Of a stretch of 44,355 nucleotides of DNA, positions 880 to 39,792 are shown piece after piece; positions within the stretch are counted from its first letter, which is position 1, and every line of letters begins with the position of its first letter. The notes beneath the pieces are model-generated. The model did not search any database. It saw only the letters and a program-made list of their open reading frames with translations, and was not told the origin of the DNA. This DNA is from Escherichia coli. Lineage in GTDB: Bacteria > Pseudomonadota > Gammaproteobacteria > Enterobacterales > Enterobacteriaceae. The stretch lies in assembly GCF_044324785.1 (NCBI RefSeq), contig NZ_CP172130.1, one strand, 5' to 3'. The position numbers and the translations under genes are program-made.

Positions 880-1326
880 ATGGCTAAAATCTATCAATTC
901 CCTCAGGGGGAAGAACGTGCTAAATTCAGGAAAGAAATAGCCAGGGAGCGTAAGAAACGTTTTGCAGTGAAAACAGGGAGCACTTTTGTTAAGTGGCTTG
1001 GCTGGGGATGGTTTTATCTTCGTCTTCTTGTCGCGAGTGTTTTACATTTTATCTTTGTTTTTGTGTTAGCCATTCTTGGTGCGTTTAAATGGGCTGTATT
1101 CTGGCTGGGTGGTATTTTGTGTGTCATCACCTGGTATCATCTCGATCACCAGTTATGGACTCCACAAAATCTGACTATACCGGTGATTACGGCAACCTGG
1201 ATTTTGGGACTGCTGGCTGAGCCTCTGATGGAGCTGCTCAACAAAACTATGCCCTGGCACAAGTTACTTGTTCCCGAACCTGCGGACGAAAGCACCGAGA
1301 ACAGTAGCGAGATAAGCCAGCAATGA
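880..1326 (+). CDS. Small membrane protein immediately downstream of pir (position of bis in R6K/IncX)
   Basis: 148-aa ORF with a basic N-terminus and two or three hydrophobic helices; GAGG-type RBS region; synteny with pir. Assignment as bis is positional only. Confidence 0.5.
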   Translation: MAKIYQFPQGEERAKFRKEIARERKKRFAVKTGSTFVKWLGWGWFYLRLLVASVLHFIFVFVLAILGAFKWAVFWLGGILCVITWYHLDHQLWTPQNLTIPVITATWILGLLAEPLMELLNKTMPWHKLLVPEPADESTENSSEISQQ

Positions 1327-1354
1327 TGCTACTCAGCGGTTATGCCAGTCCCTG

Positions 1355-1468
1355 CCTTTTCACTGTGATGCAGGATAGGGCAAACGCCGTAAAATGACGT
1401 CATTGACGCCATTTTACGGCGTTTGCCCGGTAACCTACAGTCGGTTCTTATTGGAGAATTTTATGAAA
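1355..1468. promoter_or_regulatory. oriT-like / beta-origin-like element, copy A of a ~110-bp inverted repeat pair; contains a perfect 19-bp palindrome
   Basis: GGGCAAACGCCGTAAAATG...CATTTTACGGCGTTTGCCC palindrome; about 85% identical in inverted orientation to 40331..40443 next to taxA; ends in GGAGAATTTT-ATG. Confidence 0.5.
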
Positions 1469-1819
1469 TATCAGGTGAGAGAGTTTATTAACGAAAAATA
1501 TGCTAAGGCTGTTAATATTTTAAATGATAATCTTAAAGAAAACTACCATGTTTTTTATGGAGTAAGATTAAGTGAGATTCTTTTCCCTGCCAGTGAGTAT
1601 GGCTCTGATGCATTCTTTAAAGAGTTTGAATCAATTAACAGTGTAATACTTCCATTAGTAATATTTGATTTTATAGACCGAAAGCCGATTATGGTTATCG
1701 GCTTCGATAAGATACCTGATGCCAGTTTGTTTGAAGGAACAAATATTGTGGTTCTTGAATGTACTACCCTCGCCGATCTTCTGACAAATGATAACATTTG
1801 TTTTTTATATAAAAGCTAA
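1463..1819 (+). CDS. Hypothetical protein (118 aa)
   Basis: ORF-track frame 1394..1819 trimmed to the ATG preceded by GGAGAA. The upstream 23 codons are simply the translated inverted repeat shared with the taxA upstream region. Confidence 0.5.
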   Translation: MKYQVREFINEKYAKAVNILNDNLKENYHVFYGVRLSEILFPASEYGSDAFFKEFESINSVILPLVIFDFIDRKPIMVIGFDKIPDASLFEGTNIVVLECTTLADLLTNDNICFLYKS

Positions 1820-2793
1820 GAATCTCCTATCAGTTTATATTTTCTGCTTGGGTTGCCAAGTGTTATCGAGTCCAGTTCATGTGAGTAATGATGTGTATGA
1901 TAATGTGCTGGATTTTTCAGATAATCAGGGAGTGATATTATTTTTCCGTAGCTAATTGCAGAATAAAACCAGTTGCGGAATGTCTCGCTGTTTGTTTTTA
2001 AAGCATCTTTTGGAATAAATGCTAATTTTATGTTAGAAACGTAATTAACAGGTTTAAGTGTGGTATGTCTGTTTTGTCCAAAGTCTTTTAAAGCATCTGT
2101 AAATTCATATTCTGATGTATAATTTTCTGTCTTATTACTAGGGTGTTTTATCTGGAATATGAATGAATAGTAGTTCTGGCCAAGTATTTCAACGGTGTTT
2201 GAATTTATGCTCAGTTGTTCAATAACCGCTTCTCTTTTATACTCTAATTTGTCTCTGACAGATTGATATACAACCATTGCTGCATGATGTGAACCACCAC
2301 TGTTTAAAGCCACATATCGGTCAATCCAAGAGTAATATTTAACATTAATAGGATCGCGAGGCTTGAAACCTTCATGCTCAATGTGCCATATATTATCCTC
2401 CCAGTCTGAAATATTTTCAGCTTTCAGATTTTCGGCAGGATACATCCCCTCTCCCCACGAATAAAGATCTTTGAACCAACTACCATTTATTACCTTGCTC
2501 CATCCACAACCGAAACTTTTCGAGTCAGTCAGAGATTGTATTTTGTTAAAATCGAAGTCCAGAGAGTGTTTCTTATCTGTAGTTATTAAGTTGCTCAGAA
2601 TTTCAGCCAGATCCCTGTCAATATATCTCAGTGAGTATTCGCTAAATATATTTTCAAGCTGCAATATGGTGTCTGCATCTGCTGTAGGTTTAAATAACTT
2701 AATATCAGCAAGATTTTTAAACGTTGCTGTGGTCAGTTTATGGTGATCTGTCAACCTGTAGAGGTTACAGATCAATTCGGTTAAATATCTCAT
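1816..2793 (-). CDS. Hypothetical protein (325 aa), AT-rich accessory gene, no recognised domain
   Basis: Long uninterrupted ORF convergent with the 118-aa gene; strongly AT-rich codon usage unlike neighbouring backbone genes. Confidence 0.55.
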   Translation of the reverse strand: MRYLTELICNLYRLTDHHKLTTATFKNLADIKLFKPTADADTILQLENIFSEYSLRYIDRDLAEILSNLITTDKKHSLDFDFNKIQSLTDSKSFGCGWSKVINGSWFKDLYSWGEGMYPAENLKAENISDWEDNIWHIEHEGFKPRDPINVKYYSWIDRYVALNSGGSHHAAMVVYQSVRDKLEYKREAVIEQLSINSNTVEILGQNYYSFIFQIKHPSNKTENYTSEYEFTDALKDFGQNRHTTLKPVNYVSNIKLAFIPKDALKTNSETFRNWFYSAISYGKIISLPDYLKNPAHYHTHHYSHELDSITLGNPSRKYKLIGDS

Positions 2794-2817
2794 AGATTTT
2801 CATCCATGCTTCTATGG

Positions 2818-3099
2818 TTAGAATTTTGCAGACTCAAGCAACCAGTGATTCTTTATGTTTTCATCCTGGCTGTTGTACATCGCCAGCGCCGCTTTGAGAA
2901 CGGTTGTTTTGCTCTGCCCTGTTCTGATAGCTTCAGCTTCCAGTATGTCCTCAAAATGGGCAGAAAGTCTGAAGTTCATCAACTTTGGTTTACCCACTAC
3001 AGGCGCTCTGGTAGCGCCGGAGATAAAACGCGCGGTTTCTGCGTTTGTTGCTGGTTGCTGAGATTCATCGATGTTCGGACGGTTTAGTTTCAAAGCCAT
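2818..3099 (-). CDS. Small partition/centromere-binding protein, ribbon-helix-helix type (ParG/ParB-like)
   Basis: 93-aa ORF immediately downstream of the parA-like gene; start chosen at ATG preceded by AAGGGGA; basic N-terminus and short size typical of ParG-like partners. Confidence 0.6.
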   Translation of the reverse strand: MALKLNRPNIDESQQPATNAETARFISGATRAPVVGKPKLMNFRLSAHFEDILEAEAIRTGQSKTTVLKAALAMYNSQDENIKNHWLLESAKF

Positions 3100-3198
3100 G
3101 ACAATTTCCCCTTGTACGGTATGCATTAATAGTAAATATCATACCGTCTTTATATTATCTTTACAATGTAAAGATTGTTATAGATGGTATTGATATTA

Positions 3199-3861
3199 CT
3201 ATAAAATTCCAATTTCCTGCGCTACTAGTTCAATCTGTGCTTTCGCTGTTGAAAGGCTTGATGCCCGGCTAACGTCATGTACCCCTGCCCCTTCATTACA
3301 GGCGCTTTCATACACATCCAGCTCGGATATCCGGGTTTTAAGAGGTTGAATCCAGATGTTGTCCGACCGCAGTAATTTATCCAGATCAATGGCCGCTTTT
3401 CTGTGGCGGGGTTTTGCTGAGTTGATTCTGGTGAACAGCACCCACGGTTCCAGGGCTGCGTTAGCTTTCTGAGCGGTGCGGATTTTCTCTGTAACACTGG
3501 TCAGTGTTTCGCTTTCGAAATCAGAGGACGGCTTAACCAGTGTTACCACGATATCTGATACTGTCAGGGCGCTACGGAACTCCTGGCTGTCGTGGCCGGG
3601 GCAATCGACAATGAGGACTTCACACAGCTTACTAAGTCGCTTAATTTCATTGCTGACGTTTCCGTAAGCTGCGTGAACCGGGATAGTGAGTAAGCCGTTA
3701 TCTGTCCGCTTTTCGTTCCAGCTCAACAGATCGTGGTTTTTATCTGTCTTGAGGATAATTACCGACTTACCTTTATTGACTAGCATTGAGCCTGTGTTAG
3801 CCACGTAGGTACTTTTTCCTACACCACCCTTATCTGATACGACAAGCAAGATTTTACCCAT
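3199..3861 (-). CDS. parA: ParA/ParF-family partition ATPase
   Basis: Deviant Walker A motif KGGVGKST at the N-terminus; 220 aa; followed by a small basic protein; flanked by repeat arrays. Confidence 0.85.
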   Translation of the reverse strand: MGKILLVVSDKGGVGKSTYVANTGSMLVNKGKSVIILKTDKNHDLLSWNEKRTDNGLLTIPVHAAYGNVSNEIKRLSKLCEVLIVDCPGHDSQEFRSALTVSDIVVTLVKPSSDFESETLTSVTEKIRTAQKANAALEPWVLFTRINSAKPRHRKAAIDLDKLLRSDNIWIQPLKTRISELDVYESACNEGAGVHDVSRASSLSTAKAQIELVAQEIGIL

Positions 3862-3882
3862 TTGAGAATTCCTCTCTTTATC

Positions 3883-4110
3883 ATGTAAAGATCATGTAAA
3901 GATCGTCTTGTCTTTACATTGTGTGTTTTCTGTAAAGATGATTTTATCTTTACAGTGTCTTTATATTACATAGGATTTACCATGTAAAGCACAAATAAAG
4001 ACAATCATGTATTTATGTTATCTTTATTTTGTAAAGACTAGCGCATCATTATATTGGCTTTACATAGTAAATCAGTACTTGTCTTTACATCATATTTACG
4101 TTGTAAATTT
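3883..4110. repeat. Array of about 11 TGTAAAG/CTTTACA heptamer repeats in both orientations (candidate centromere/operator, possibly overlapping a res site)
   Basis: Repeated CATGTAAAG, CTTTACA, CTGTAAAG, TTGTAAAG motifs between the par operon and the resolvase gene; a related palindrome CTTTACAATGTAAAG lies at about 3150..3175. Confidence 0.5.
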
Positions 4111-4223
4111 TCATGTGACATTGTCACTTTATGACCAGAGGTCTGTTTTCTGGTTCTTTTAGAGTGTGCCTTTCCTGTCGATCTACTTTCTGGTGCATTT
4201 TGGGTATAGTGGTATAACCTTAT

Positions 4224-4880
4224 GTGAACCGGTTCTGTAATATGACTTCAAATGTACCAACAAGCTTTGTCCGCGCTTATCTGAGAGCTTCAACAGCAGA
4301 ACAGGATGCTTCGCGTGCCCTGGAAACTATCGAGGCTTTTGCCAGGGAAAGAGGCCTGATCATTTGCAGCTACTATATTGAGAATGAATCCGGCACCCGT
4401 CTTGAGCGCCCGGAACTTTTTCGTCTTCTGAGAGATTGCCAACAAAATGACATTTTGCTTATCGAGGATGTGGACAGACTTTCCCGCCTGTCAGGGGAAG
4501 ACTGGAATACGTTGAAGAAAATGATCCGGCAGAAAGACATCCGGGTTATGGCGGTGAATGTGCCGACGACATGGATTAATTCTGGTATGAGTGAGTTTGA
4601 TAGCCGGTTGTTTGCAGCCATTAACGATATGCTGCTGGATATGCTGGCCGCTGTTGCCAGAAGGGACTATGAACAACGGCGGGAACGCCAGAAACAAGGG
4701 ATAGAGAAAGCAAGGAAAGACGGCAAATATAAAGGGCGTAAACCTAATCAAGCCAGACATGATGCAATTATCAGGTTGATAGAAAGCGGTAGCTCCTGGA
4801 CACAGGTACAGAAAGTGCTAGGGTGCAGCCGTGGCACAATCAGTAGCGCAATAAAACGTAAATCCCGGCAATCACTCTAG
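4224..4880 (+). CDS. Serine recombinase (resolvase family), probable multimer-resolution resolvase
   Basis: N-terminal catalytic motif AYLRASTAEQ; size and C-terminal HTH region typical of resolvases. The true start may be the ATG at 4242 (MTSNVP...). Confidence 0.8.
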   Translation: MNRFCNMTSNVPTSFVRAYLRASTAEQDASRALETIEAFARERGLIICSYYIENESGTRLERPELFRLLRDCQQNDILLIEDVDRLSRLSGEDWNTLKKMIRQKDIRVMAVNVPTTWINSGMSEFDSRLFAAINDMLLDMLAAVARRDYEQRRERQKQGIEKARKDGKYKGRKPNQARHDAIIRLIESGSSWTQVQKVLGCSRGTISSAIKRKSRQSL

Positions 4881-5067
4881 TGAGTAGGGAAGCTGTTATC
4901 CTGAATTACTTTGGATATGGGCATATATGCTGGAATAGGGCATTAGATAAAGTAATTGAGCATGTGAATGTTGTAACTAATTCAGGCTGAGCAGAAAATG
5001 CTGTATGTCCAGTCTGTACTGGAATTATACTGGCAACCATGATCATCACAGGAAGAACAAGTAATAG

Positions 5068-5592
5068 ATGGCGACTGAGTGGGTGGATGTGGCTGATAAT
5101 GCCGTTAAAATTGGGCTTGGCTCTGCGCTAACAATATTGGGCGGTTATTTGACGCTCAAATTATCACAGCAGCACGAGTTAAGGAAAGAAGCATTAATTC
5201 AGCGACGTAAAGATTTTGAGGTGAAAGCTGAGCGTTACGTGAATTTTTTATCCTGTTCAAGAATGATGTTACAGAAATATATGATGTCCTCATTAAGACA
5301 TGACTGTGAAGATTATATTGAATATACAAGGCTGCATGAAACGGTATCCCTTACATGCGCAAGTAATACTATGAGAAAGCTGGCCTTTGATGCTTACAAC
5401 GCCGTATCTGATGCCTGCACAATGGGAACAGCAAATCGCGATGAAAAAAAACCAGTCAGGGAAAAAGCTAAAGTGGCTTTAGATAAGTTTCAGGGATTTG
5501 CCAGTGAAGAACTACGTCATGAGAAAGCTGCAATTGAGGTAATGAACAAAAAGCGGGCATTTTGGTCCTTTGGGCGACAAACTGCGCGATGA
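5068..5592 (+). CDS. Hypothetical protein with one N-terminal transmembrane helix (174 aa)
   Basis: Hydrophobic segment VKIGLGSALTILGGYLTL followed by a charged, probably coiled-coil region; AT-rich. Confidence 0.5.
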   Translation: MATEWVDVADNAVKIGLGSALTILGGYLTLKLSQQHELRKEALIQRRKDFEVKAERYVNFLSCSRMMLQKYMMSSLRHDCEDYIEYTRLHETVSLTCASNTMRKLAFDAYNAVSDACTMGTANRDEKKPVREKAKVALDKFQGFASEELRHEKAAIEVMNKKRAFWSFGRQTAR

Positions 5593-6922: not shown

Positions 6923-6988
6923 AAATCCTCCTTTGTTAAAGGGCAGGAAGCGGTGCACTTCCTGCCCTTAGTTACGTTTCCGCAGTCA

Positions 6989-7084
6989 TCAATCGATGAA
7001 CTGACGGATCAGTTCCAGAACTGCAATCAGCGCGTTTGCAACGGCGACCACAGCCCTGAGAACGATGATTAACAGGTTAATCAT
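6989..7084 (-). CDS. Candidate type I toxin: 31-aa hydrophobic peptide MINLLIIVLRAVVAVANALIAVLELIRQFID (DinQ/TisB-like)
   Basis: ATG with GGAG 6 nt upstream; the SD lies in a CUCCAG/CUGGAG hairpin; single transmembrane helix; absent from the ORF track because it is under 60 aa. Confidence 0.4.
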   Translation of the reverse strand: MINLLIIVLRAVVAVANALIAVLELIRQFID

Positions 7085-7344
7085 CCGTTTCTCCAGGTTG
7101 ATACTGGAGGAAGTCGCCGTTGCTTGCTCATACATCGCCTGTCACAACGGCTCTCTCACATTGTTGGATGTAGAGTACCTTCCCCCTGCCAGAGCACTGA
7201 ACACAGCACCACCTGTTTGTTCAGCCAGGACTTTAATTCGTTCATACCCAGATAGCGCAGGGTTTAGAAGCAAGGGAGGCACACTGTACAGCGCCAACAC
7301 AAAGATTATACGGGGTCTGACGCTCAGTGGAACGAAAACTCACG

Positions 7345-18588: not shown

Positions 18589-18852
18589 TTATCGTCTCTT
18601 CGCCCACTCTTTTTCATCATCGGTGAGTTGTTCTTTATGCAAATAATCACCAGGGACAGGGGGAGGAGTAACCAGTTTAGGACGCCCATTATCATCACGA
18701 ACCGTCACCAGACCAACTACCTCACCATTTTCTTTAAGCGCCCATGCAGCCAGTTGGTATACTGTTGACTTTCCTGCCACACCGGAGACATTATCGTGAC
18801 GGAAATACCAGTCTGTCGCAGGGATAATTTGTTTGTAGGATGTATTACTCAT
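18589..18852 (-). CDS. Hypothetical protein (87 aa) downstream of hns
   Basis: ORF co-directional with hns-hha-topB; followed by a hairpin plus T-rich stretch on the minus strand (about 18548..18580). Confidence 0.5.
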   Translation of the reverse strand: MSNTSYKQIIPATDWYFRHDNVSGVAGKSTVYQLAAWALKENGEVVGLVTVRDDNGRPKLVTPPPVPGDYLHKEQLTDDEKEWAKRR

Positions 18853-18902: not shown

Positions 18903-19364
18903 TTACTGCTCATCTGTTACTCCGTTCAAACTCTTATTGATACGAAAATCTTCCAGAGAACGCCCGGCTTTCAACGCTTCATCAATCGGTTTTGGCGCAC
19001 GTCCACGACCAGACCAGTATTTCGTTTCACCATTTTCTTCAAATTGATACTTGGGTGGCGCTTTTGGTAACGTTTTTTTACGTGATTTTGGTGCTTCTTC
19101 GGACAGACCAAGCAGTTCTTCCGGTGAGAAACCCTCTCCGGCGATTAACTGAAGCAGTTCCTGACGTTTCCGTTCACGCTCTGCTCGTTCAGCCGCTTCA
19201 CGTTCAGCATCTTCACGACGTTCTTCAATAACAACGTTGAGCTTTTCCTGCATTTCGAGCAACTGCTCAAAATCAATCTCACGGGCAAACACACGCAATG
19301 AACGAATATTCATCATAGTCCGGCTGATAATGCCGTATTCATCTTCTTTAGTCAGTTCGCTCAT
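18903..19364 (-). CDS. hns: Plasmid-encoded H-NS-family nucleoid-associated protein
   Basis: 153 aa; N-terminal coiled-coil oligomerisation region and C-terminal DNA-binding motif (YWSGRGRAPK) characteristic of H-NS. Confidence 0.8.
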   Translation of the reverse strand: MSELTKEDEYGIISRTMMNIRSLRVFAREIDFEQLLEMQEKLNVVIEERREDAEREAAERAERERKRQELLQLIAGEGFSPEELLGLSEEAPKSRKKTLPKAPPKYQFEENGETKYWSGRGRAPKPIDEALKAGRSLEDFRINKSLNGVTDEQ

Positions 19365-19379
19365 AATTAATCCTCTTGT

Positions 19380-19586
19380 TTAATGGACGTACTTCCATAC
19401 GCCGGAAGGAACCTTATCATAAAGTTTATTCATCACCAGTTCTGCACGGCGGTGATCTGCGGCAGAATAAAATGCCTCTGATTCTGATAAAGGCAGCTTG
19501 TAACGGTTAATCTCAATAACTTTTTCAAGAGTATCTCTTGATGTACATTTTCTTAACTGAAAAAGCCATTCCTGCTTTGTTTTCAC
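19380..19586 (-). CDS. hha: Hha/YmoA-family H-NS co-regulator
   Basis: 68-aa protein with Hha-like sequence (…[15 protein letters not shown]…); sits between topB and hns. Confidence 0.75.
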
Positions 19587-21736
19587 TTCTTAGCCCTTGC
19601 CGGAAAACCCAGCTTCCCTGTTTTCTTATCCTCAAGGACAAGAACTGTATCATACGTTCCACCACTTTTCTTTTTAAATCCCTTAATCAAATCGGTTTTC
19701 CCTGATTTAACCAGTTTTTCGGCCTGTGCCTGGGTGATTTTCTTACCAGAAAACTCACTCCAGATTTTAAATTCACATCCGGTACAGAAATAACCTTTCG
19801 GCCTGATAACAATATGTTTACCACAGGAAGGGCAGGGAGAGTCCAGGCGTTGAAACTGCCCTGCTGGCGCAGCGGGTTCAATCTTCATCTCGCCCAGGTC
19901 AACATCAGAAATCATGCCTGTCAGTTCACCGTACAGCTCATTAATAAACTCTTCAACCGTCAGGTCGCCATTTTCAATGGCTGTCTGCTTTTCAGACCAT
20001 AATGCTGTCATATCAGGATTAACCGCTATACCAGGCAGGGCATCAATAAGCGCATATCCGGTATCAGTAGGAATAAGTTTCCCTTTTTCCAGCGTGATAT
20101 AGTTTCTTTTCTTCAGCGTTTCCAGAATGGCTGCGCGGGTAGCTGGCGTACCAATGCCACCATGTTCATCTTTTTTGTCTTTATCCTTATCCTTCAACAA
20201 TTTTTTAATTGTTGGATCAGTGACAAAATCCGCGACACGAACAAGCGCAGCAAGCAAGGAGGCTTCGGTGAATAACGGCGGCGGTGTTGTTTTCTTCTCA
20301 TTAACAATAACTTCTTTTGTCGTCAGTGTTTCTCCTGTGCGAATTTTACAGAGCAGTTCAAAAGCGGAATCATCATTATCTTCTGATTCACCTTCGTCTG
20401 TGGTTTCCGCGCCAAGAAACGCCTCAAATCCGCTGTCAGTTGTTTTTCTGGCACGGGCATAGAACGACTCATCACCACACTGAATGGCAACCGATACTTC
20501 CTGGTATGCTTTTTCAGGCATGAACTGAACAAGATAGTGTTGTGCGATCGCCAGGTAAACATTGCGCTCGTCGGTACTGAGTGCGTTAACATCAGGCACA
20601 CTGGCGGTCGGGATTATCGCAGTATGCGCAGTCACCTTTGCACTGTTAAACGCCTTGCTTTTACGTGAAGAATCAATATCCAGCGACTGAGGAAAGACTG
20701 ATTTCAGGGCATCGATAACCTGCGGCGCTTCGCTGAATTGTTCATCAGAAAGATATGAGCAATCAGAGCGGTTATAAGTAATCGCTTTATATTTTTCACG
20801 TAATTGTTGCGTAATATCCAGCGTTTTTTGTGCCGTCATTTTGAACTTTTTGTTCATGTATTGCTGGAGTCTGACCAGGTTAAACGGCAACGGCGCAGCC
20901 GTTTTTTTATCATCAGTTGCTGCCGCTTCAACTGTAGCCGGTTTTCCTGCAAGGGATGCTGCCGTTCCGTCTGCCCACGCTTTATCAAGTAATTTACGGT
21001 CTGTCAGCGGAGCAAATTCCCCTGGCTTCCAGTTCGCCCTGATAACATCAGCACCACGCTGAAAGACTCCGGTCATGGTGTAGTAAAAACTGGATTTATG
21101 GTTCTGGTTAGCACGGGTACGATTCACAATCAGGCCAAGAACGGGCGTCTGGACGCGCCCGACAGACAGAACGCCCTGATATCCTCTGGCTTTTGCAGGA
21201 ATGGTGTAAGCACGCGTCATGGAGAAGCCATAGACGGCATCAGCAACTGAACGCGCCAGCGCCTTAAGGTAAAGCCCTTTGAAATCACGATTATCTTTAA
21301 GATTTGCCAGTGCCTTTTTCACTGCCGGAAGCGTGTTGTCGTTAATCAGAACGCGCTTTACGGGTTTTGTGTTTCCTGCATATTCCAGGACTTCATCAAC
21401 AAGTAGCTGTCCCTCATCATCAGGATCGCCAGCGTGAACAATTTCAGTCACGTCTCCACGTCTGATAAGTTCGAGAATCGTTTTAACCTGTTTTGCTGCA
21501 CTTTCAACAGGCTGATACTTCACGGGATAAAGACGTAAAGGAAGCGTTTCAACCTTCCAGGCTTTGTATTCAGGATTATAGTTTTCCGGCGGTTGTGATT
21601 CGATAATATGACCAAAACAGTTAGTCACAATGGCGTTATCACTTTCAAACCAGCCATCATGACGGGTGAAATTGCCCCCAAGAGCCTTAACAATATCATT
21701 TGCTACTGCGGGTTTTTCTGCAATAAAAAGTTTCAT
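19583..21736 (-). CDS. topB: DNA topoisomerase III (type IA) with C-terminal zinc-ribbon domains
   Basis: 717 aa; N-terminal TOPRIM (MKLFIAEKP...), type IA core, C-terminal Cys-rich repeats (CPSCGK..., CTGC...). Confidence 0.85.
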
Positions 21737-21740
21737 TTTG

Positions 21741-22328
21741 TTATCCTTTACATTGAATTAATCTTTTGGCACAACGGATAGCGCGTTCTTCTGATACTTC
21801 CTGTTGCCAGTTATCTTCACTTACAGGTTGTTTGAATCTGCGCTCACAGCCATTAAAGGCAAAAATTCCCTCACGGTTAAGTATATTAGTTGCAATATCC
21901 CAGTCTTTAATTCTCAAAAAGGCTGTTACAGCAAAACCAGAATACGAAGCAATTTTTGAAATGATGCATTCATCAGCTTTTATTAACGCGGCAAAAGGAA
22001 CTATCTTCTGATGACCACACGAAATCATAGGGAGTGTGTGAATATCATAATAAGCTATTGAATGACAATCCATGCGGGTGTCATCAATAGCTGCCAGCCA
22101 GAATCCTGTCTGGTCTTTTATTTTTCTGCTAATATCAGAATCTGAAACACCAGGATTTAATAAATATCCACCATAGCAGACATGGAAGGGGTGAACAGAT
22201 TCATCAATATCAGGAAGTTCTTTTACCGGATTTTCTTTCCAGTCCTTCAGAACACCAAATTCAAGAGCATCCAGCAAAAACTTTCGTTCAAATCCATCAA
22301 ACAATGCATATTGCATAATAACCACCAA
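21741..22328 (-). CDS. Hypothetical protein (195 aa)
   Basis: ORF 5 bp upstream of topB on the same strand; no recognised motif. True start may be the internal ATG (MQYALF...). Confidence 0.5.
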   Translation of the reverse strand: MVVIMQYALFDGFERKFLLDALEFGVLKDWKENPVKELPDIDESVHPFHVCYGGYLLNPGVSDSDISRKIKDQTGFWLAAIDDTRMDCHSIAYYDIHTLPMISCGHQKIVPFAALIKADECIISKIASYSGFAVTAFLRIKDWDIATNILNREGIFAFNGCERRFKQPVSEDNWQQEVSEERAIRCAKRLIQCKG

Positions 22329-37819: not shown

Positions 37820-38303
37820 TTTTTAACCTGTCGTATTTTCTGTTACACACATAGTCGGCAAAGACTTGTCCACGCTTTGAAGCGTCTGCAAGGAGAAGTA
37901 TTTTTGCCAGACAGGAGTTATTCATCAGGCTTAAATTCATCGAAAAAATCTTCTCCTGCTCTTTTACTTCATTTATGACACTTAGAGGAACTTCAGCAGG
38001 ATATTCACCAAAACTGACCAGTCCATAAACATTTTTCATCCGGGTAAAGCAGGATGGATGTACAACCTCAAAATCCAGAAGAACGAATACATAACCGGGA
38101 AACATTGGCATGATTTGTCCCCTGTATGCACTACAGTCACGCCTCTTATAGAAAGTGCGTATAACTGGATTGTAGTAAGCGATACCGCTCCGGGATAACT
38201 GCAACAGAACCGACTGATGAAAATGCGGAGAACACTGAAGCAGGTAAAACTGTTTCTGTCCTTTCATACTCAATCCCCGATATACAGATGTGACAAAACA
38301 CAA
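37749..38303 (-). CDS. actX: NusG/RfaH-like transcription antiterminator (ActX-type activator of the pilX operon)
   Basis: Family assignment is mainly positional (first gene of the pilX operon), with weak sequence resemblance to NusG-like proteins; probable true start at the internal ATG (MKGQKQFYLL...). Confidence 0.6.
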   Translation of the reverse strand: MCFVTSVYRGLSMKGQKQFYLLQCSPHFHQSVLLQLSRSGIAYYNPVIRTFYKRRDCSAYRGQIMPMFPGYVFVLLDFEVVHPSCFTRMKNVYGLVSFGEYPAEVPLSVINEVKEQEKIFSMNLSLMNNSCLAKILLLADASKRGQVFADYVCNRKYDRLKNDSYKRKAETATQCTLPSYRSSC

Positions 38304-38619
38304 GCCAACCGTGGTTGCTTGTGAGAAATCACGCCCCTATGAAGAGAGACTTTTTACTATTGCGCGAAGTTTATACTACAAGTGGCTTATGCTAAGTTCA
38401 ACACATAAAACAGATCTTTCGATCTTGATAAATCAATTTTTCTTTCATTTATTCCATGTAAACAATAAAACATAGAATATTCATCTTTTGCAGATCTATT
38501 TTTTAGATCGATAGATCGAATGATAGCTAAAACGCAGAATTTCGATCTGTTTTTAAGGCGAAAAGATGAGCAAGCGAACTAAAATAAATATTTTTCTCGC
38601 ATAATCAATACATTAAATC

Positions 38620-39792
38620 TTATAAGCCCAAAAACTTAATCCCTGTTTTCAGCTTCTGTTCTGACTGTAACGTGGATGCTTTCTGCTGCGTAAACTGCGC
38701 CATTCGCTGTTGTTGCTTCAACAGCATATCAGGGCTGTTCAGTACCAGCTCTTTGCTGGCTGAAGGTGTTCTGTCTACGCCCTTAACCCCCAGATTTTCT
38801 AACTGCCACTCATTTCTGTGAACCGTTTTCCAGCCATGCTGAACACCATTTTTATCGAGCGCCGGGATTTTTACTTCTTTCTGACCAAGTTTCTTCAGTC
38901 TGACAAGATCACCTGCTTTAACGCTTTCCCGCGAACATAAGTCCCCAAAATCAGCCCCCCAGTATGTTTTCTCAACCCCCTTGTTAAGAGTCTTTAGCTT
39001 TATAAAATGTTGCTTAGACTTTGTTTTATCGTTCTGATAATGGTCATAGCCAATATCAACAACCTCATAAACACCTTTCTGTCTTTTTGGTGCTGTATTA
39101 TGTGCATCTTTAACAGACTGATTAAGTCCATGCTGTTGCTTATGGGTCGCTTTAACGTCATAACCTTTTAACTTCAACTCTTCACAAAAACCTGTACGAA
39201 TTTCCCGTAAATCTTTTTTCCTGATATCAGCGCGTTTACCGTCATTATCTCGGATACGAAAAACAACATGAACGTGAGGATGTTCTTTCTTATCACAGTG
39301 GTATCCAAGAACAAAACGGTGATTAGGATATTTTTTCTGCATCGTTTTCCTGACAGACTCCAGCAAATCTTCAGGCTTTACTTTCGCTGAAACTGGAGGC
39401 GAGAAGACAATATTCTGTGTGATTTTTTTATTTTCTTTACCTTTATCATTCATCACATGCTGAGGATCATTAGCACGATCTATCATGTGCTCTTTAGCTT
39501 CCAGAATTTCGTCACCCGTCCATACCCGACCGCTTTCACTCATCACTGGTAGCTCTGACTCACGGCTCATATAATCAATACTGTTCCGAATCCCCTGACG
39601 AGTAATAGCACCTCCAGATATTTTGACAACAACCTCCTTACTGGCACCCTTGCGGTTGATACGTTCCTGAACATTGCGGCTATAGTTCTTTCCACCATTT
39701 TTGACTTTGTGAGCGAAAGCTGACTTACGACCATTTTCTGATGACTTTCGTTTAACACGATATTCTTTATCAACGTAAACGCCCATAATCAC
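38620..39792 (-). CDS. taxC: Conjugative relaxase (MOBP-type)
   Basis: 390 aa; histidine triad HPHVHVV and N-terminal catalytic region; adjacent to taxA and the oriT-like repeat. Confidence 0.8.
   Translation of the reverse strand: MIMGVYVDKEYRVKRKSSENGRKSAFAHKVKNGGKNYSRNVQERINRKGASKEVVVKISGGAITRQGIRNSIDYMSRESELPVMSESGRVWTGDEILEAKEHMIDRANDPQHVMNDKGKENKKITQNIVFSPPVSAKVKPEDLLESVRKTMQKKYPNHRFVLGYHCDKKEHPHVHVVFRIRDNDGKRADIRKKDLREIRTGFCEELKLKGYDVKATHKQQHGLNQSVKDAHNTAPKRQKGVYEVVDIGYDHYQNDKTKSKQHFIKLKTLNKGVEKTYWGADFGDLCSRESVKAGDLVRLKKLGQKEVKIPALDKNGVQHGWKTVHRNEWQLENLGVKGVDRTPSASKELVLNSPDMLLKQQQRMAQFTQQKASTLQSEQKLKTGIKFLGL

What the first reader, a model, noticed from the sequence alone, without database searches (positions are those of the whole stretch)
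18903..21736. Plasmid-borne H-NS + Hha + topoisomerase III module
The three genes are co-transcribed on the minus strand. A plasmid-encoded H-NS/Hha pair is known to reduce fitness cost by silencing AT-rich horizontally acquired DNA, and this backbone is itself AT-rich. The sRNA gene and the Tn3 insertion lie directly beside this module.
Basis: established knowledge. Interest (0 to 1): 0.3.

Follow-up and report, generated by a model that had tools for sequence, protein, structure and literature searches.

The report
IncX1 plasmid topB-hha-hns "gem" module
This is the well-known topoisomerase III / Hha / H-NS-like gene cluster of IncX resistance plasmids, whose H-NS-like protein keeps the plasmid's own conjugation genes switched off; the annotation is correct but not new.

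Summary
On the minus strand lie topB (21736..19583, 717 aa), hha (19586..19380, 68 aa, GTG start overlapping the topB stop by 4 nt) and an H-NS-family gene (19364..18903, 153 aa). All three match their families strongly. The window is a complete IncX1 plasmid. It is a 33.66-kb backbone of 41% GC carrying a 10.7-kb Tn3-family insertion.

The trio is the named "gem" region of IncX plasmids, so it is already known. Work from 2020-2026 on IncX homologues (Sfx, HppX3, IncX1b pH-NS) shows that the main role is silencing of the plasmid's own conjugation operon. Hha acts as co-repressor. This is more specific than general silencing of AT-rich DNA. The role of TopB has not been tested.

Co-transcription is plausible but not shown. 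The unit probably runs on through an 87-aa ORF to a terminator at 18575..18554. In R6K the H-NS-like gene has its own promoter inside the end of topB.

Other points:
- orf191, topB, hha and the first ~60 hns codons are 97% identical to IncX4 plasmids, whose other backbone genes barely align. The breakpoint lies inside hns.
- The Tn3-family element splits a dqlB/AgrB toxin-antitoxin locus.

Interest is low.

The parts
19583..21736 (-). topB: plasmid type IA DNA topoisomerase III, 717 aa
   Evidence: ORF. Pfam Toprim, Topoisom_bac and Toprim_Crpt. NCBIfam NF005829 627>597 and TIGR01056 535>516. Residues 1-610 align to E. coli Topo III 1-604 at E=4e-117, with E7, D104/D106/E108 and catalytic Y321 (=Y328) conserved. 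The decatenation-loop region is present and 8 residues longer. The C-terminal 107 aa has a 4-Cys ribbon, C635/C638/C651/C654.
19380..19586 (-). hha: Hha/YmoA-family co-repressor, 68 aa, GTG start overlapping the topB stop (GTGA)
   Evidence: PF05321 E=8.6e-29. NF008191 109>90. Aligns to Hha and YmoA structures, with C14 (=C18), E21 (=E25) and D44 (=D48) conserved. IncX4 has ATG at the same position. The protein is identical in pOLA52 and IncX4 (WP_000850859.1). All 8 nt differences from IncX4 leave the protein unchanged: 7 synonymous codons plus the GTG/ATG start.
18903..19364 (-). hns paralogue of the plasmid HppX/Sfx clade, 153 aa
   Evidence: PF22470 and PF00816. Fails both the H-NS and the StpA equivalog cut-offs, 97<211 and 119<202. 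Has a 9-residue N-terminal extension, R21 (=R12), R24 (=R15) and an R120-G121-R122 AT-hook-like motif. It is 77% identical to IncX3 HppX3. That equals the figure published for the IncX1b pH-NS tested experimentally (PMC11880322).
18589..18852 (-). orf87: hypothetical 87-aa ORF, probably the last gene of the same transcription unit
   Evidence: Starts 50 nt after the hns stop, behind an AAGGAAG ribosome-binding site. No significant match in Pfam, NCBIfam or PHROGs; the only PHROGs hit is marginal (phrog_188, E=0.009). Annotated as hypothetical protein WP_000072657.1. Not found after hns in pOLA52, IncX3 or IncX4.
18554..18575 (-). Intrinsic-terminator-like hairpin plus T-run: the first minus-strand terminator candidate after the module
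   Evidence: 9-pair stem AAGCCTCTTGTTCAGGAGGCTT followed by TTATTTTG. IncX3 has a hairpin with the same AAGCCTC...GAGGCTT arms directly after its hns.
21741..22316 (-). orf191: hypothetical gene ending 4 nt before the topB ATG; part of the block shared with IncX4
   Evidence: No Pfam, NCBIfam or PHROGs match. The 97.4% identity to IncX4 starts at its start codon.
19649..19678 (-). Candidate internal promoter (TTTAAA/TTAAAA, 17-18 nt, TATGAT) inside the 3' end of topB, upstream of hha; weak evidence
   Evidence: Consensus match. The total number of promoter-like hits in the region is not above the shuffle expectation (19 against 16.8). The site is not conserved in IncX3. The position parallels the sfx promoter reported at the end of topB in R6K.
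38268..38620 (-). AT-rich intergenic region upstream of the NusG/RfaH-family gene (actX/prfaH homologue): inferred main target of the H-NS paralogue
   Evidence: GC is 32.9% overall and falls to 28% at 38400-38599. The NusG-family gene is annotated. HppX3 and pH-NS bind or repress this promoter in IncX3 (PMC11915502, PMC11880322). Not tested for this plasmid.
18107..18194 (+). Neighbour, not part of the module: AgrB-family antisense sRNA gene of a dqlB/AgrB type I toxin-antitoxin locus
   Evidence: Rfam RF02891, 68.8 bits (cut-off 40), E=9.8e-10, full length.
7312..18004 (.). Neighbour, not part of the module: Tn3-family transposon (blaTEM-1, with three IS26 copies and further resistance genes inside), flanked by the 5-bp duplication TATAC
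   Evidence: Perfect 38-bp inverted repeats at 7312-7349 and 17967-18004. TATAC at 7307-7311 and 18005-18009. The uninterrupted empty site is found in the 33,657-bp IncX1 plasmid CP088733.1.

Best explanation
The locus is the 'gem' (gene expression modulation) region of an IncX1 conjugative resistance plasmid.

Shown here from sequence:
- The region encodes a complete topoisomerase III, a complete Hha and a complete two-domain H-NS paralogue of the plasmid-specific HppX/Sfx clade.
- The genes are packed head to tail.
- They are under purifying selection.

Taken from experiments on IncX homologues:
- The H-NS paralogue oligomerises through its N-terminal domain.
- Its C-terminal domain, with an RGR AT-hook-like motif, coats AT-rich DNA of its own plasmid, above all the actX/prfaH promoter and the T4SS (vir/pilX) operon.
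- This keeps conjugation repressed until a plasmid activator (the NusG/RfaH paralogue, or VirBR-type counter-silencers) overrides it.

Inferred:
- Plasmid Hha binds the N-terminal domain of the paralogue and strengthens bridged, transcription-blocking filaments. IncX1 would then not depend on host Hha, as R6K does.
- TopB most likely either resolves replication or transfer intermediates, or adjusts plasmid supercoiling, on which binding of the paralogue depends.
- Transcription probably comes from more than one promoter and ends at the terminator after orf87.
For: Gene identities.

IncX1 context and 100% identical annotated plasmids.

The named gem region (topB, hha, hns) of IncX plasmids: PMC5868456 and PMC5023117, both citing Norman 2008.

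Features of the HppX/Sfx clade found in the H-NS protein (compared with PMC11796372 and PMC7544231):
- an N-terminal extension;
- S22 and F26 at the positions where Sfx has S19 and F23;
- a hydrophobic residue (M18) in place of H-NS N9;
- Q39 in place of H-NS L30;
- the RGR motif;
- failure of the H-NS and StpA equivalog cut-offs.

Published function:
- IncX1b phns deletion gives ~150-fold more transfer. That protein is 77% identical to the IncX3 one, as this one is.
- HppX3 binds PactX.
- Sfx plus Rho silence the R6K vir operon, and silencing depends on supercoiling.
- Host Hha co-represses with Sfx.

In the window:
- The actX upstream region is the AT-richest stretch locally, 28-33% GC.
- Purifying selection: topB differs from IncX4 topB at 38 nt but only 5 aa; hha differs at 8 nt with 0 aa changes.
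- No minus-strand terminator candidate occurs inside the cluster.
Against: - Nothing was measured on this plasmid. Function is transferred from homologues 77% identical (IncX3) or from an IncX1b plasmid whose sequence I could not compare directly.
- No study of a plasmid-borne IncX Hha or IncX TopB turned up in the searches.
- pOLA52 hha/hns clones had no effect on host biofilm or motility.
- Loss of Sfx gave no fitness or stability defect for R6K in the laboratory.
- The H-NS residue N9, important for Hha binding, is M18 here, so the Hha contact may differ.
- The promoter prediction is no better than chance.
Confidence: 0.75

Rival explanations
1. Generic 'stealth' module. The plasmid H-NS/Hha pair tops up the host H-NS pool, so the incoming AT-rich plasmid does not titrate chromosomal H-NS. 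It silences AT-rich or acquired genes in general, resistance genes included, and so lowers the fitness cost. It is not dedicated to conjugation control.
For: - The backbone is 41% GC.
- HppX3 ChIP-seq found 321 chromosomal peaks, about 62% of them overlapping H-NS sites.
- Sfx partly compensates for loss of H-NS (section heading).
- In IncX1 tet(X4) plasmids, hns expression correlated with fitness, and supplying hns in trans improved the fitness of an hns-less IncX1 plasmid (PMC8632487).
- pH-NS is described as crucial for IncX3 persistence.
Against: - Sfx, HppX3 and HppX-CROD2 bind their own plasmid preferentially and the chromosome weakly.
- Deleting sfx does not alter most chromosomal genes.
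- R6K lacking sfx shows no fitness or stability defect.
- The IncX1 tet(X4) evidence is largely correlative.
- This reading is compatible with the best explanation as a secondary effect.
Confidence: 0.3
2. TopB is the functional partner of the silencer. It acts on the plasmid to set a local DNA topology that the H-NS paralogue recognises ('cognate plasmid specificity'), or it relieves the torsional stress created by Hha-bridged filaments. The linkage of the three genes would then be mechanistic.
For: - topB directly followed by hns, or by hha then hns, recurs in IncX1, X3, X4 and X6, and in a non-IncX MPF_T plasmid, pF829-3.
- Sfx silencing is lost when gyrase is inhibited.
- The hypothesis is stated in PMC13308145 and PMC11796372.
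- topB expression is reported as co-regulated by HppX3 and VirBR.
Against: - The searches found no experiment on any IncX TopB.
- Type IA enzymes relax only strongly negatively supercoiled DNA or decatenate, and nothing explains how TopB would act on the plasmid alone.
- Linkage could simply reflect shared ancestry.
Confidence: 0.25
3. The three genes are functionally independent neighbours. TopB serves plasmid DNA metabolism, that is, decatenation of replication products or processing of transferred DNA. From my own knowledge, the same has been proposed for RP4 TraE. H-NS and Hha regulate separately.
For: - TopB keeps the decatenation-loop region that, in E. coli Topo III, is needed for decatenation (plus established knowledge).
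- The literature files the gem region under plasmid 'maintenance'.
- hha is absent from many topB-hns pairs, so the trio is not obligatory.
Against: - Translational-coupling-type overlaps occur: topB/hha GTGA here, and topB/hns 4 nt in pF829-3.
- The gene order is conserved across distant plasmids.
- orf191, topB, hha and the 5' part of hns moved between IncX1 and IncX4 as one block.
Confidence: 0.3

Closest known systems
gem (gene expression modulation) region topB-hha-hns of IncX1 plasmid pOLA52 (Norman et al. 2008, as cited in PMC5868456 and PMC5023117)
   Same: - Same gene order and strand.
- 98.2% nucleotide identity over window 18944..21750.
- The Hha protein is identical.
- TopB has the same length, with 10 aa differences.
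- H-NS is 95% identical.
   Different: - pOLA52 H-NS is 144 aa and lacks the 9-residue C-terminal tail. Similarity ends at 18944, inside the 3' end of hns.
- pOLA52 has no orf87 after hns.
- pOLA52 has a divergent SMEK-domain gene upstream of topB instead of orf191.
Sfx of R6K (IncX2) and HppX3 of IncX3 plasmids: the characterised H-NS paralogues of the HppX clade
   Same: - Encoded just downstream of topB on an IncX backbone.
- N-terminal extension, RGR motif and hydrophobic residue at the H-NS N9 position.
- 77% identity to HppX3.
- Published role as repressor of conjugation.
   Different: - IncX2 and IncX3 carry no hha and use the host's Hha. Here hha sits between topB and hns.
- The N-terminal 16 residues differ from HppX3.
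- IncX3 TopB is 775 aa and only about 72% identical in the short alignable DNA segments.
IncX4 topB-hha-hns (mcr-1 plasmids such as pLHM10-1-mcr-1; HppX of pCROD2)
   Same: - orf191, topB, hha and the first ~60 hns codons are 97.4% identical.
- Hha is identical.
- H-NS residues 1-60 are identical.
   Different: - From residue 61 on, the H-NS proteins diverge, to 62% identity overall.
- IncX4 has N-G-K where this protein has R-G-R.
- The rest of the two backbones barely align.
- hha starts with ATG in IncX4.
R27 / pSf-R27 (IncHI1) plasmid H-NS (Sfh) and Hha: the 'stealth' paradigm
   Same: A plasmid-encoded H-NS-family protein plus a plasmid Hha on an AT-rich conjugative plasmid. The pair takes part in repressing conjugation (citing the R27 work).
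   Different: - A different H-NS clade: HppH, which is close to H-NS. This protein belongs to HppX.
- From my own knowledge, unchecked here, hns and hha are not adjacent on R27 and are not linked to a topoisomerase gene.
E. coli chromosomal TopB (topoisomerase III)
   Same: The catalytic core aligns end to end, 1-610 against 1-604 (E=4e-117). The Toprim acidic residues, the catalytic tyrosine and the decatenation-loop region are all present.
   Different: - The loop is 8 residues longer and rich in K/D.
- The C-terminal ~107 aa has a 4-Cys zinc ribbon and a Toprim_Crpt repeat, instead of the short basic tail of E. coli TopB.

Membership tests
H-NS family (Pfam PF22470 + PF00816) | N-terminal dimerisation/oligomerisation domain | tested here: met
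   PF22470 E=9.4e-23, 80.4 bits against a cut-off of 24.5, residues 13-87. Aligns to Salmonella H-NS 1-83 (3nr7). R21 and R24 correspond to R12 and R15; L35 and L42 correspond to L26 and L33.
H-NS family (Pfam PF22470 + PF00816) | C-terminal DNA-binding domain with the Q/R-G-R AT-hook-like motif | tested here: met
   PF00816 E=2.9e-14, residues 104-142. The motif is W117-S-G-R120-G121-R122-A-P124.
Chromosomal H-NS or StpA orthologue (NCBIfam equivalogs NF008193, NF007656) | Score above the curated equivalog cut-off | tested here: not met
   H-NS model 97.3 bits against 211. StpA model 118.6 bits against 202. The protein belongs to the family but is neither H-NS nor StpA.
HppX / Sfx clade of plasmid H-NS paralogues | Encoded on an IncX-type plasmid downstream of topB, with clade-typical substitutions (N-terminal extension; hydrophobic residue at H-NS N9; change at H-NS L30; RGR) | tested here: met
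   IncX1 typing. Gene order. 9-residue extension, M18, Q39 and RGR, compared with the descriptions in PMC11796372 and PMC7544231. No phylogeny was built.
HppX / Sfx clade of plasmid H-NS paralogues | Represses conjugation of its own plasmid | not testable with these tools
   Published for IncX1b, IncX2 and IncX3 homologues. Not measured for this plasmid.
Hha/YmoA family (PF05321; NCBIfam NF008191) | Full-length match above the curated cut-offs | tested here: met
   PF05321, 100 bits against 25, profile positions 2-57 of 57. NF008191, 109 bits against 90. The YdgT equivalog is not met, 47.6 against 101.
Hha/YmoA family (PF05321; NCBIfam NF008191) | Residues used to contact H-NS (Hha D48, E25) and the conserved C18 | tested here: met
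   D44, E21 and C14 align to them. The role of these residues is taken from established knowledge (Hha/H-NS complex 4icg, 2mw2). Binding itself was not tested.
Bacterial DNA topoisomerase III (TIGR01056 / NF005829) | Score above the curated subfamily cut-offs, and higher than for the topoisomerase I models | tested here: met
   NF005829 627.4 against 597. TIGR01056 534.9 against 515.75. The best topo I model scores 202 against 456.
Bacterial DNA topoisomerase III (TIGR01056 / NF005829) | Toprim acidic residues, catalytic tyrosine and decatenation loop | tested here: met
   E7, D104/D106/E108 and Y321 align to E. coli E7, D103/D105/E107 and Y328. The loop region (E. coli ~502-519) is present with an 8-residue insertion. 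Enzymatic activity cannot be tested here.
IncX 'gem' region | topB, hha and hns in that order on an IncX backbone, between the T4SS genes and the accessory region | tested here: met
   98.2% identical to the pOLA52 region. Definition taken.
   For: the 4-nt overlap, the 15-nt gap and the absence of an internal terminator candidate. Against a simple picture: orf191 lies 4 nt upstream and orf87 lies before the terminator; an sfx promoter is reported inside the end of topB in R6K. RNA data are needed.

The most novel reading that the evidence does not exclude
The gem cluster behaves as an exchangeable cassette. The block orf191, topB, hha and exactly the part of hns encoding the N-terminal domain (the Hha-binding and dimerisation part, residues 1-60) is shared at 97% identity between IncX1 and IncX4 plasmids, whose other backbone genes barely align. 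Each lineage keeps its own C-terminal linker and DNA-binding half (RGR against NGK).

If this is selected rather than accidental, Hha and its docking domain are inherited as a unit. The C-terminal half would then carry the plasmid-specific targeting ('cognate plasmid specificity').
Probability: 0.25. Interest if true: 0.4.

Novelty: already known. Interest (0 to 1): 0.15.

Why it matters
IncX plasmids spread blaNDM, mcr-1, tet(X4), blaKPC and ESBL genes. Their H-NS paralogue is a main brake on conjugation, so the module bears on how fast these plasmids spread and what they cost the host.

For this window the finding adds nothing beyond a correct annotation of a named, actively studied locus.

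Open points:
- No study of the plasmid-borne Hha (present in IncX1, X4 and X6; absent in X2 and X3) or of TopB turned up in the searches.
- The chimeric structure of hns suggests a simple domain-swap experiment to find what gives these silencers their preference for their own plasmid.

Tried and rejected
- **R6K and pCROD2.** Look-ups by accession (LT827129, FN543504) failed: neither is in the collections. Sfx and HppX-CROD2 were therefore compared only through published descriptions.
- **ops element.** GGCGGTAGNNTG with 1 mismatch gave 2 hits, against 1.24 expected by chance. Neither lies near actX. The published IncX 'ops-like' site was not retrieved.
- **Promoter scan.** 19 promoter-like sites were found against 16.8 expected, which is uninformative. 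The candidate at 19678..19649 is not conserved in IncX3, and no promoter-like site was found at the end of IncX3 topB. I do not claim an internal promoter.
- **orf191 and orf87.** No significant match in Pfam, NCBIfam or PHROGs; the only hit was a marginal phrog_188 match at E=0.009. Their functions stay unknown. I ran no further search on them.
- **orf191 codon comparison.** A naive comparison with IncX4 was invalidated by a 3-nt length difference and is not used.
- **Rejected: the H-NS gene is a captured chromosomal hns or stpA.** It fails both equivalog cut-offs.
- **Rejected: the topoisomerase is a topo I.** Topo I models score far below their cut-offs.
Full report
**1. What is there**

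ORF listing shows three head-to-tail minus-strand ORFs at exactly the reported coordinates:

| ORF | Coordinates | Length |
|---|---|---|
| topB | 21736..19583 | 717 aa |
| hha | 19586..19380 | 68 aa |
| hns | 19364..18903 | 153 aa |

Pfam assigns the following:
- 717-aa protein: Toprim, Topoisom_bac (E=7.5e-97) and Toprim_Crpt.
- 68-aa protein: HHA (E=8.6e-29).
- 153-aa protein: both H-NS domains (E=9.4e-23 and 2.9e-14).

NCBIfam's curated cut-offs refine this:
- The topoisomerase passes the topoisomerase III models (NF005829 627>597; TIGR01056 535>516). It falls far below every topoisomerase I model.
- The small protein passes the Hha model (109>90) but not YdgT.
- The H-NS-like protein fails both the H-NS (97<211) and StpA (119<202) equivalogs. 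It is a family member but neither chromosomal orthologue.

Alignment to solved structures adds detail:
- TopB aligns to E. coli Topo III over 1-610/1-604 (E=4e-117). E7, D104/D106/E108 and catalytic Y321 are conserved. The decatenation-loop region is present and 8 residues longer.
- Its extra C-terminal ~107 aa contains a CxxC...CxxC ribbon (C635, C638, C651, C654).
- Hha aligns over its whole length to Hha and YmoA, with C14, E21 and D44 at the positions of C18, E25 and D48.
- The H-NS-like protein aligns to the H-NS N-terminal domain and to the StpA and H-NS C-terminal domains. R21 and R24 correspond to R12 and R15, and the AT-hook-like motif reads R-G-R.

**2. Context**

The 4.5 kb around the module is 100% identical to many IncX1 plasmids from E. 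coli and Salmonella. Examples are pDKX1-TEM-52 and the 44,362-bp Salmonella plasmid NZ_CP104480.1. Their annotations agree with mine.

The window is essentially a whole plasmid:
- The backbone is 33,662 bp at 41.2% GC.
- A 10,693-bp Tn3-family element at 50.9% GC lies at 7312..18004. It has perfect 38-bp inverted repeats and the 5-bp target duplication TATAC.
- The uninterrupted empty site exists in the 33,657-bp IncX1 plasmid CP088733.1.

An AgrB-family sRNA gene lies at 18107..18194(+).

**3. Gene packing and transcription**

- The topB stop and the hha GTG start overlap (GTGA).
- hha and hns are 15 nt apart, with an AAGAGGA ribosome-binding site.
- orf191 ends 4 nt before the topB ATG.
- An 87-aa ORF starts 50 nt after hns.
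- On the minus strand the only terminator-like hairpins are at 18575..18554, just after orf87, and at the complement of the AgrB terminator.

The spacing is compatible with co-transcription. It suggests a unit that is longer than three genes at both ends.

Promoter prediction is uninformative: 19 sites against 16.8 expected. A candidate at 19678..19649 inside the end of topB parallels the sfx promoter reported at the end of topB in R6K. It is not conserved in IncX3.

In pOLA52 the gene upstream of topB is divergent, so topB must have its own promoter there.

Co-transcription therefore remains unproven, and the real picture probably involves several promoters.

**4. What it is called and what is known**

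The literature describes topB-hha-hns as the 'gem' (gene expression modulation) region of IncX plasmids. It was defined on the IncX1 plasmid pOLA52, and it is listed as a core IncX backbone marker. The window is 98.2% identical to the pOLA52 region.

The H-NS paralogues of IncX plasmids form the HppX clade, which has been studied intensively:
- Sfx of R6K represses conjugation where chromosomal H-NS and StpA cannot. It interacts with host Hha, and host Hha enhances the repression.
- Sfx acts with Rho during elongation of the vir operon, and its action depends on negative supercoiling.
- HppX3 binds the actX promoter and is displaced by VirBR.
- In IncX3 and IncX1b, plasmid H-NS represses the prfaH (actX) promoter. 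Deleting phns raised IncX1b transfer ~150-fold.
- The IncX1b protein is stated to be 77% identical to the IncX3 one. That is the value I obtain for the window protein, so the tested protein is probably the same or nearly so.
- HppX proteins bind their own plasmid preferentially. A 2026 preprint speculates that the adjacent topoisomerase creates the recognised topology.

In the window, the region upstream of the NusG/RfaH-family gene is the most AT-rich local stretch, 28-33% GC. This fits it being the target.

**5. Mechanism proposed**

Shown:
- The three genes are intact family members with their key residues.
- They are tightly packed.
- They are under purifying selection. Against IncX4, topB has 38 nt but only 5 aa differences, and hha has 8 nt differences and none in the protein.

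Transferred from homologues: the H-NS paralogue coats the AT-rich transfer region of its own plasmid and keeps conjugation low.

Inferred:
- The plasmid's own Hha docks on the N-terminal domain and strengthens bridging, which makes IncX1 independent of host Hha.
- TopB either decatenates plasmid DNA or tunes the supercoiling on which silencing depends.

Fitness effects were reported for IncX3 and for IncX1 tet(X4) plasmids. No effect was found for R6K.

**6. Distribution of the trio**

hha is not universal. A small survey gave:

| Plasmid group | Arrangement |
|---|---|
| IncX1 (window, pOLA52) | topB-hha-hns |
| IncX4 | topB-hha-hns in pLHM10-1-mcr-1; in NZ_CP083882 hha-hns after a gap where no topB is listed |
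| IncX6 | topB-hha-hns |
| IncX2 (R6K) | topB-hns only |
| IncX3 | topB-hns only |
| p40EC-5, typed 'IncX1' | topB-hns only |
| pF829-3, non-IncX MPF_T | topB-hns only, 4-nt overlap |

In PLSDB, Hha at 95% identity or more occurs in about 776 records. The H-NS protein at 90% or more occurs in about 317.

**7. Mosaic structure (extra observation)**

Against an IncX4 mcr-1 plasmid, the only long similarity is window 19161..22316. This block covers orf191, topB, hha and the first ~60-68 codons of hns, at 97.4% identity. The T4SS regions give only a 240-bp match at 68%.

At protein level:
- The two H-NS paralogues are identical for residues 1-60 and then diverge. IncX4 has N-G-K in place of R-G-R.
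- The C-terminal half of the window protein is close to IncX3 HppX3.
- pOLA52 differs again at the extreme C-terminus.

hns is thus a recombination hot spot. One breakpoint separates the Hha-docking and dimerisation domain from the linker and DNA-binding half. I could not determine the direction of exchange, nor whether this has been reported.

**8. Verdict**

The annotation is correct. The module is already known, so interest is low. The residual interest lies in the plasmid Hha and TopB, for which the searches found no functional study, and in the chimeric hns.

Noticed in passing
window 7312..18004, with flanks 6982..7311 and 18005..18194: The Tn3-family element (TSD TATAC) sits between a dqlB type I toxin ORF (~6982..7077, minus strand) and its AgrB-family sRNA gene (18107..18194, plus strand). 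The two halves are contiguous in CP088733.1 and in IncX4. The minus strand of the empty site reads ...CATCTGTATAATC..., an extended -10 (TGTATAAT) straddling the insertion point, so the insertion may have destroyed or rewired the toxin promoter. The plus strand at 7165-7198 resembles the 5' part of the AgrB RNA, so its complement in the dqlB 5' UTR is the likely antisense target.
   Followed up: partly
window 19161..22316, compared with L006 (IncX4 pLHM10-1-mcr-1) 1962..5116: orf191, topB, hha and the first ~60 codons of hns are 97.4% identical between this IncX1 plasmid and IncX4, while the rest of the backbones barely align. The breakpoint lies inside hns. The proteins share residues 1-60 and differ in the linker and DNA-binding half (RGR here, NGK in IncX4).
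   Followed up: partly
window 18589..18852 (minus strand) and 18554..18575: An 87-aa ORF with no significant family match lies between hns and the terminator. In IncX3 a hairpin with the same AAGCCTC...GAGGCTT arms follows hns directly. The ORF looks like a lineage-specific insertion into the 3' end of the unit.
   Followed up: partly
window 19583..19586, compared with L003 ~4501: hha starts with GTG in IncX1 (window and pOLA52) but with ATG at the same position in IncX4. In both cases the start overlaps the topB stop codon by 4 nt, and the TopB C-terminus is unchanged.
   Followed up: yes
window 20158..20181 (TopB residues ~519-526) and 19583..19903 (C-terminal 107 aa): The plasmid TopB has an 8-residue K/D-rich insertion in the decatenation-loop region. 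It also has a C-terminal 4-Cys zinc ribbon plus a Toprim_Crpt repeat, both absent from E. coli TopB.
   Followed up: partly
window 14219..14294 (minus strand) and about 8700..16000: Inside the Tn3-family element there is an AAC_AAD_leader/attI match (Rfam RF02912, 74.3 bits). The near-identical record NZ_CP104480.1 annotates three IS26 copies flanking aadA2, lnu(F) and aac(3)-IId here. Resistance genes appear to have accumulated by IS26 activity within the transposon.
   Followed up: no
window 38268..38620: The intergenic region upstream of the NusG/RfaH-family gene (actX/prfaH homologue) falls to 28% GC. A canonical ops element (GGCGGTAGNNTG, 1 mismatch allowed) was not found there.
   Followed up: partly
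L011 (NZ_OY754446.1 pF829-3) 970..3560: A plasmid not typed as IncX (IncFIB replicon, MOBC relaxase, MPF_T) also carries topB followed by an H-NS-family gene, with a 4-nt overlap. The topB-hns pairing therefore extends beyond IncX.
   Followed up: no
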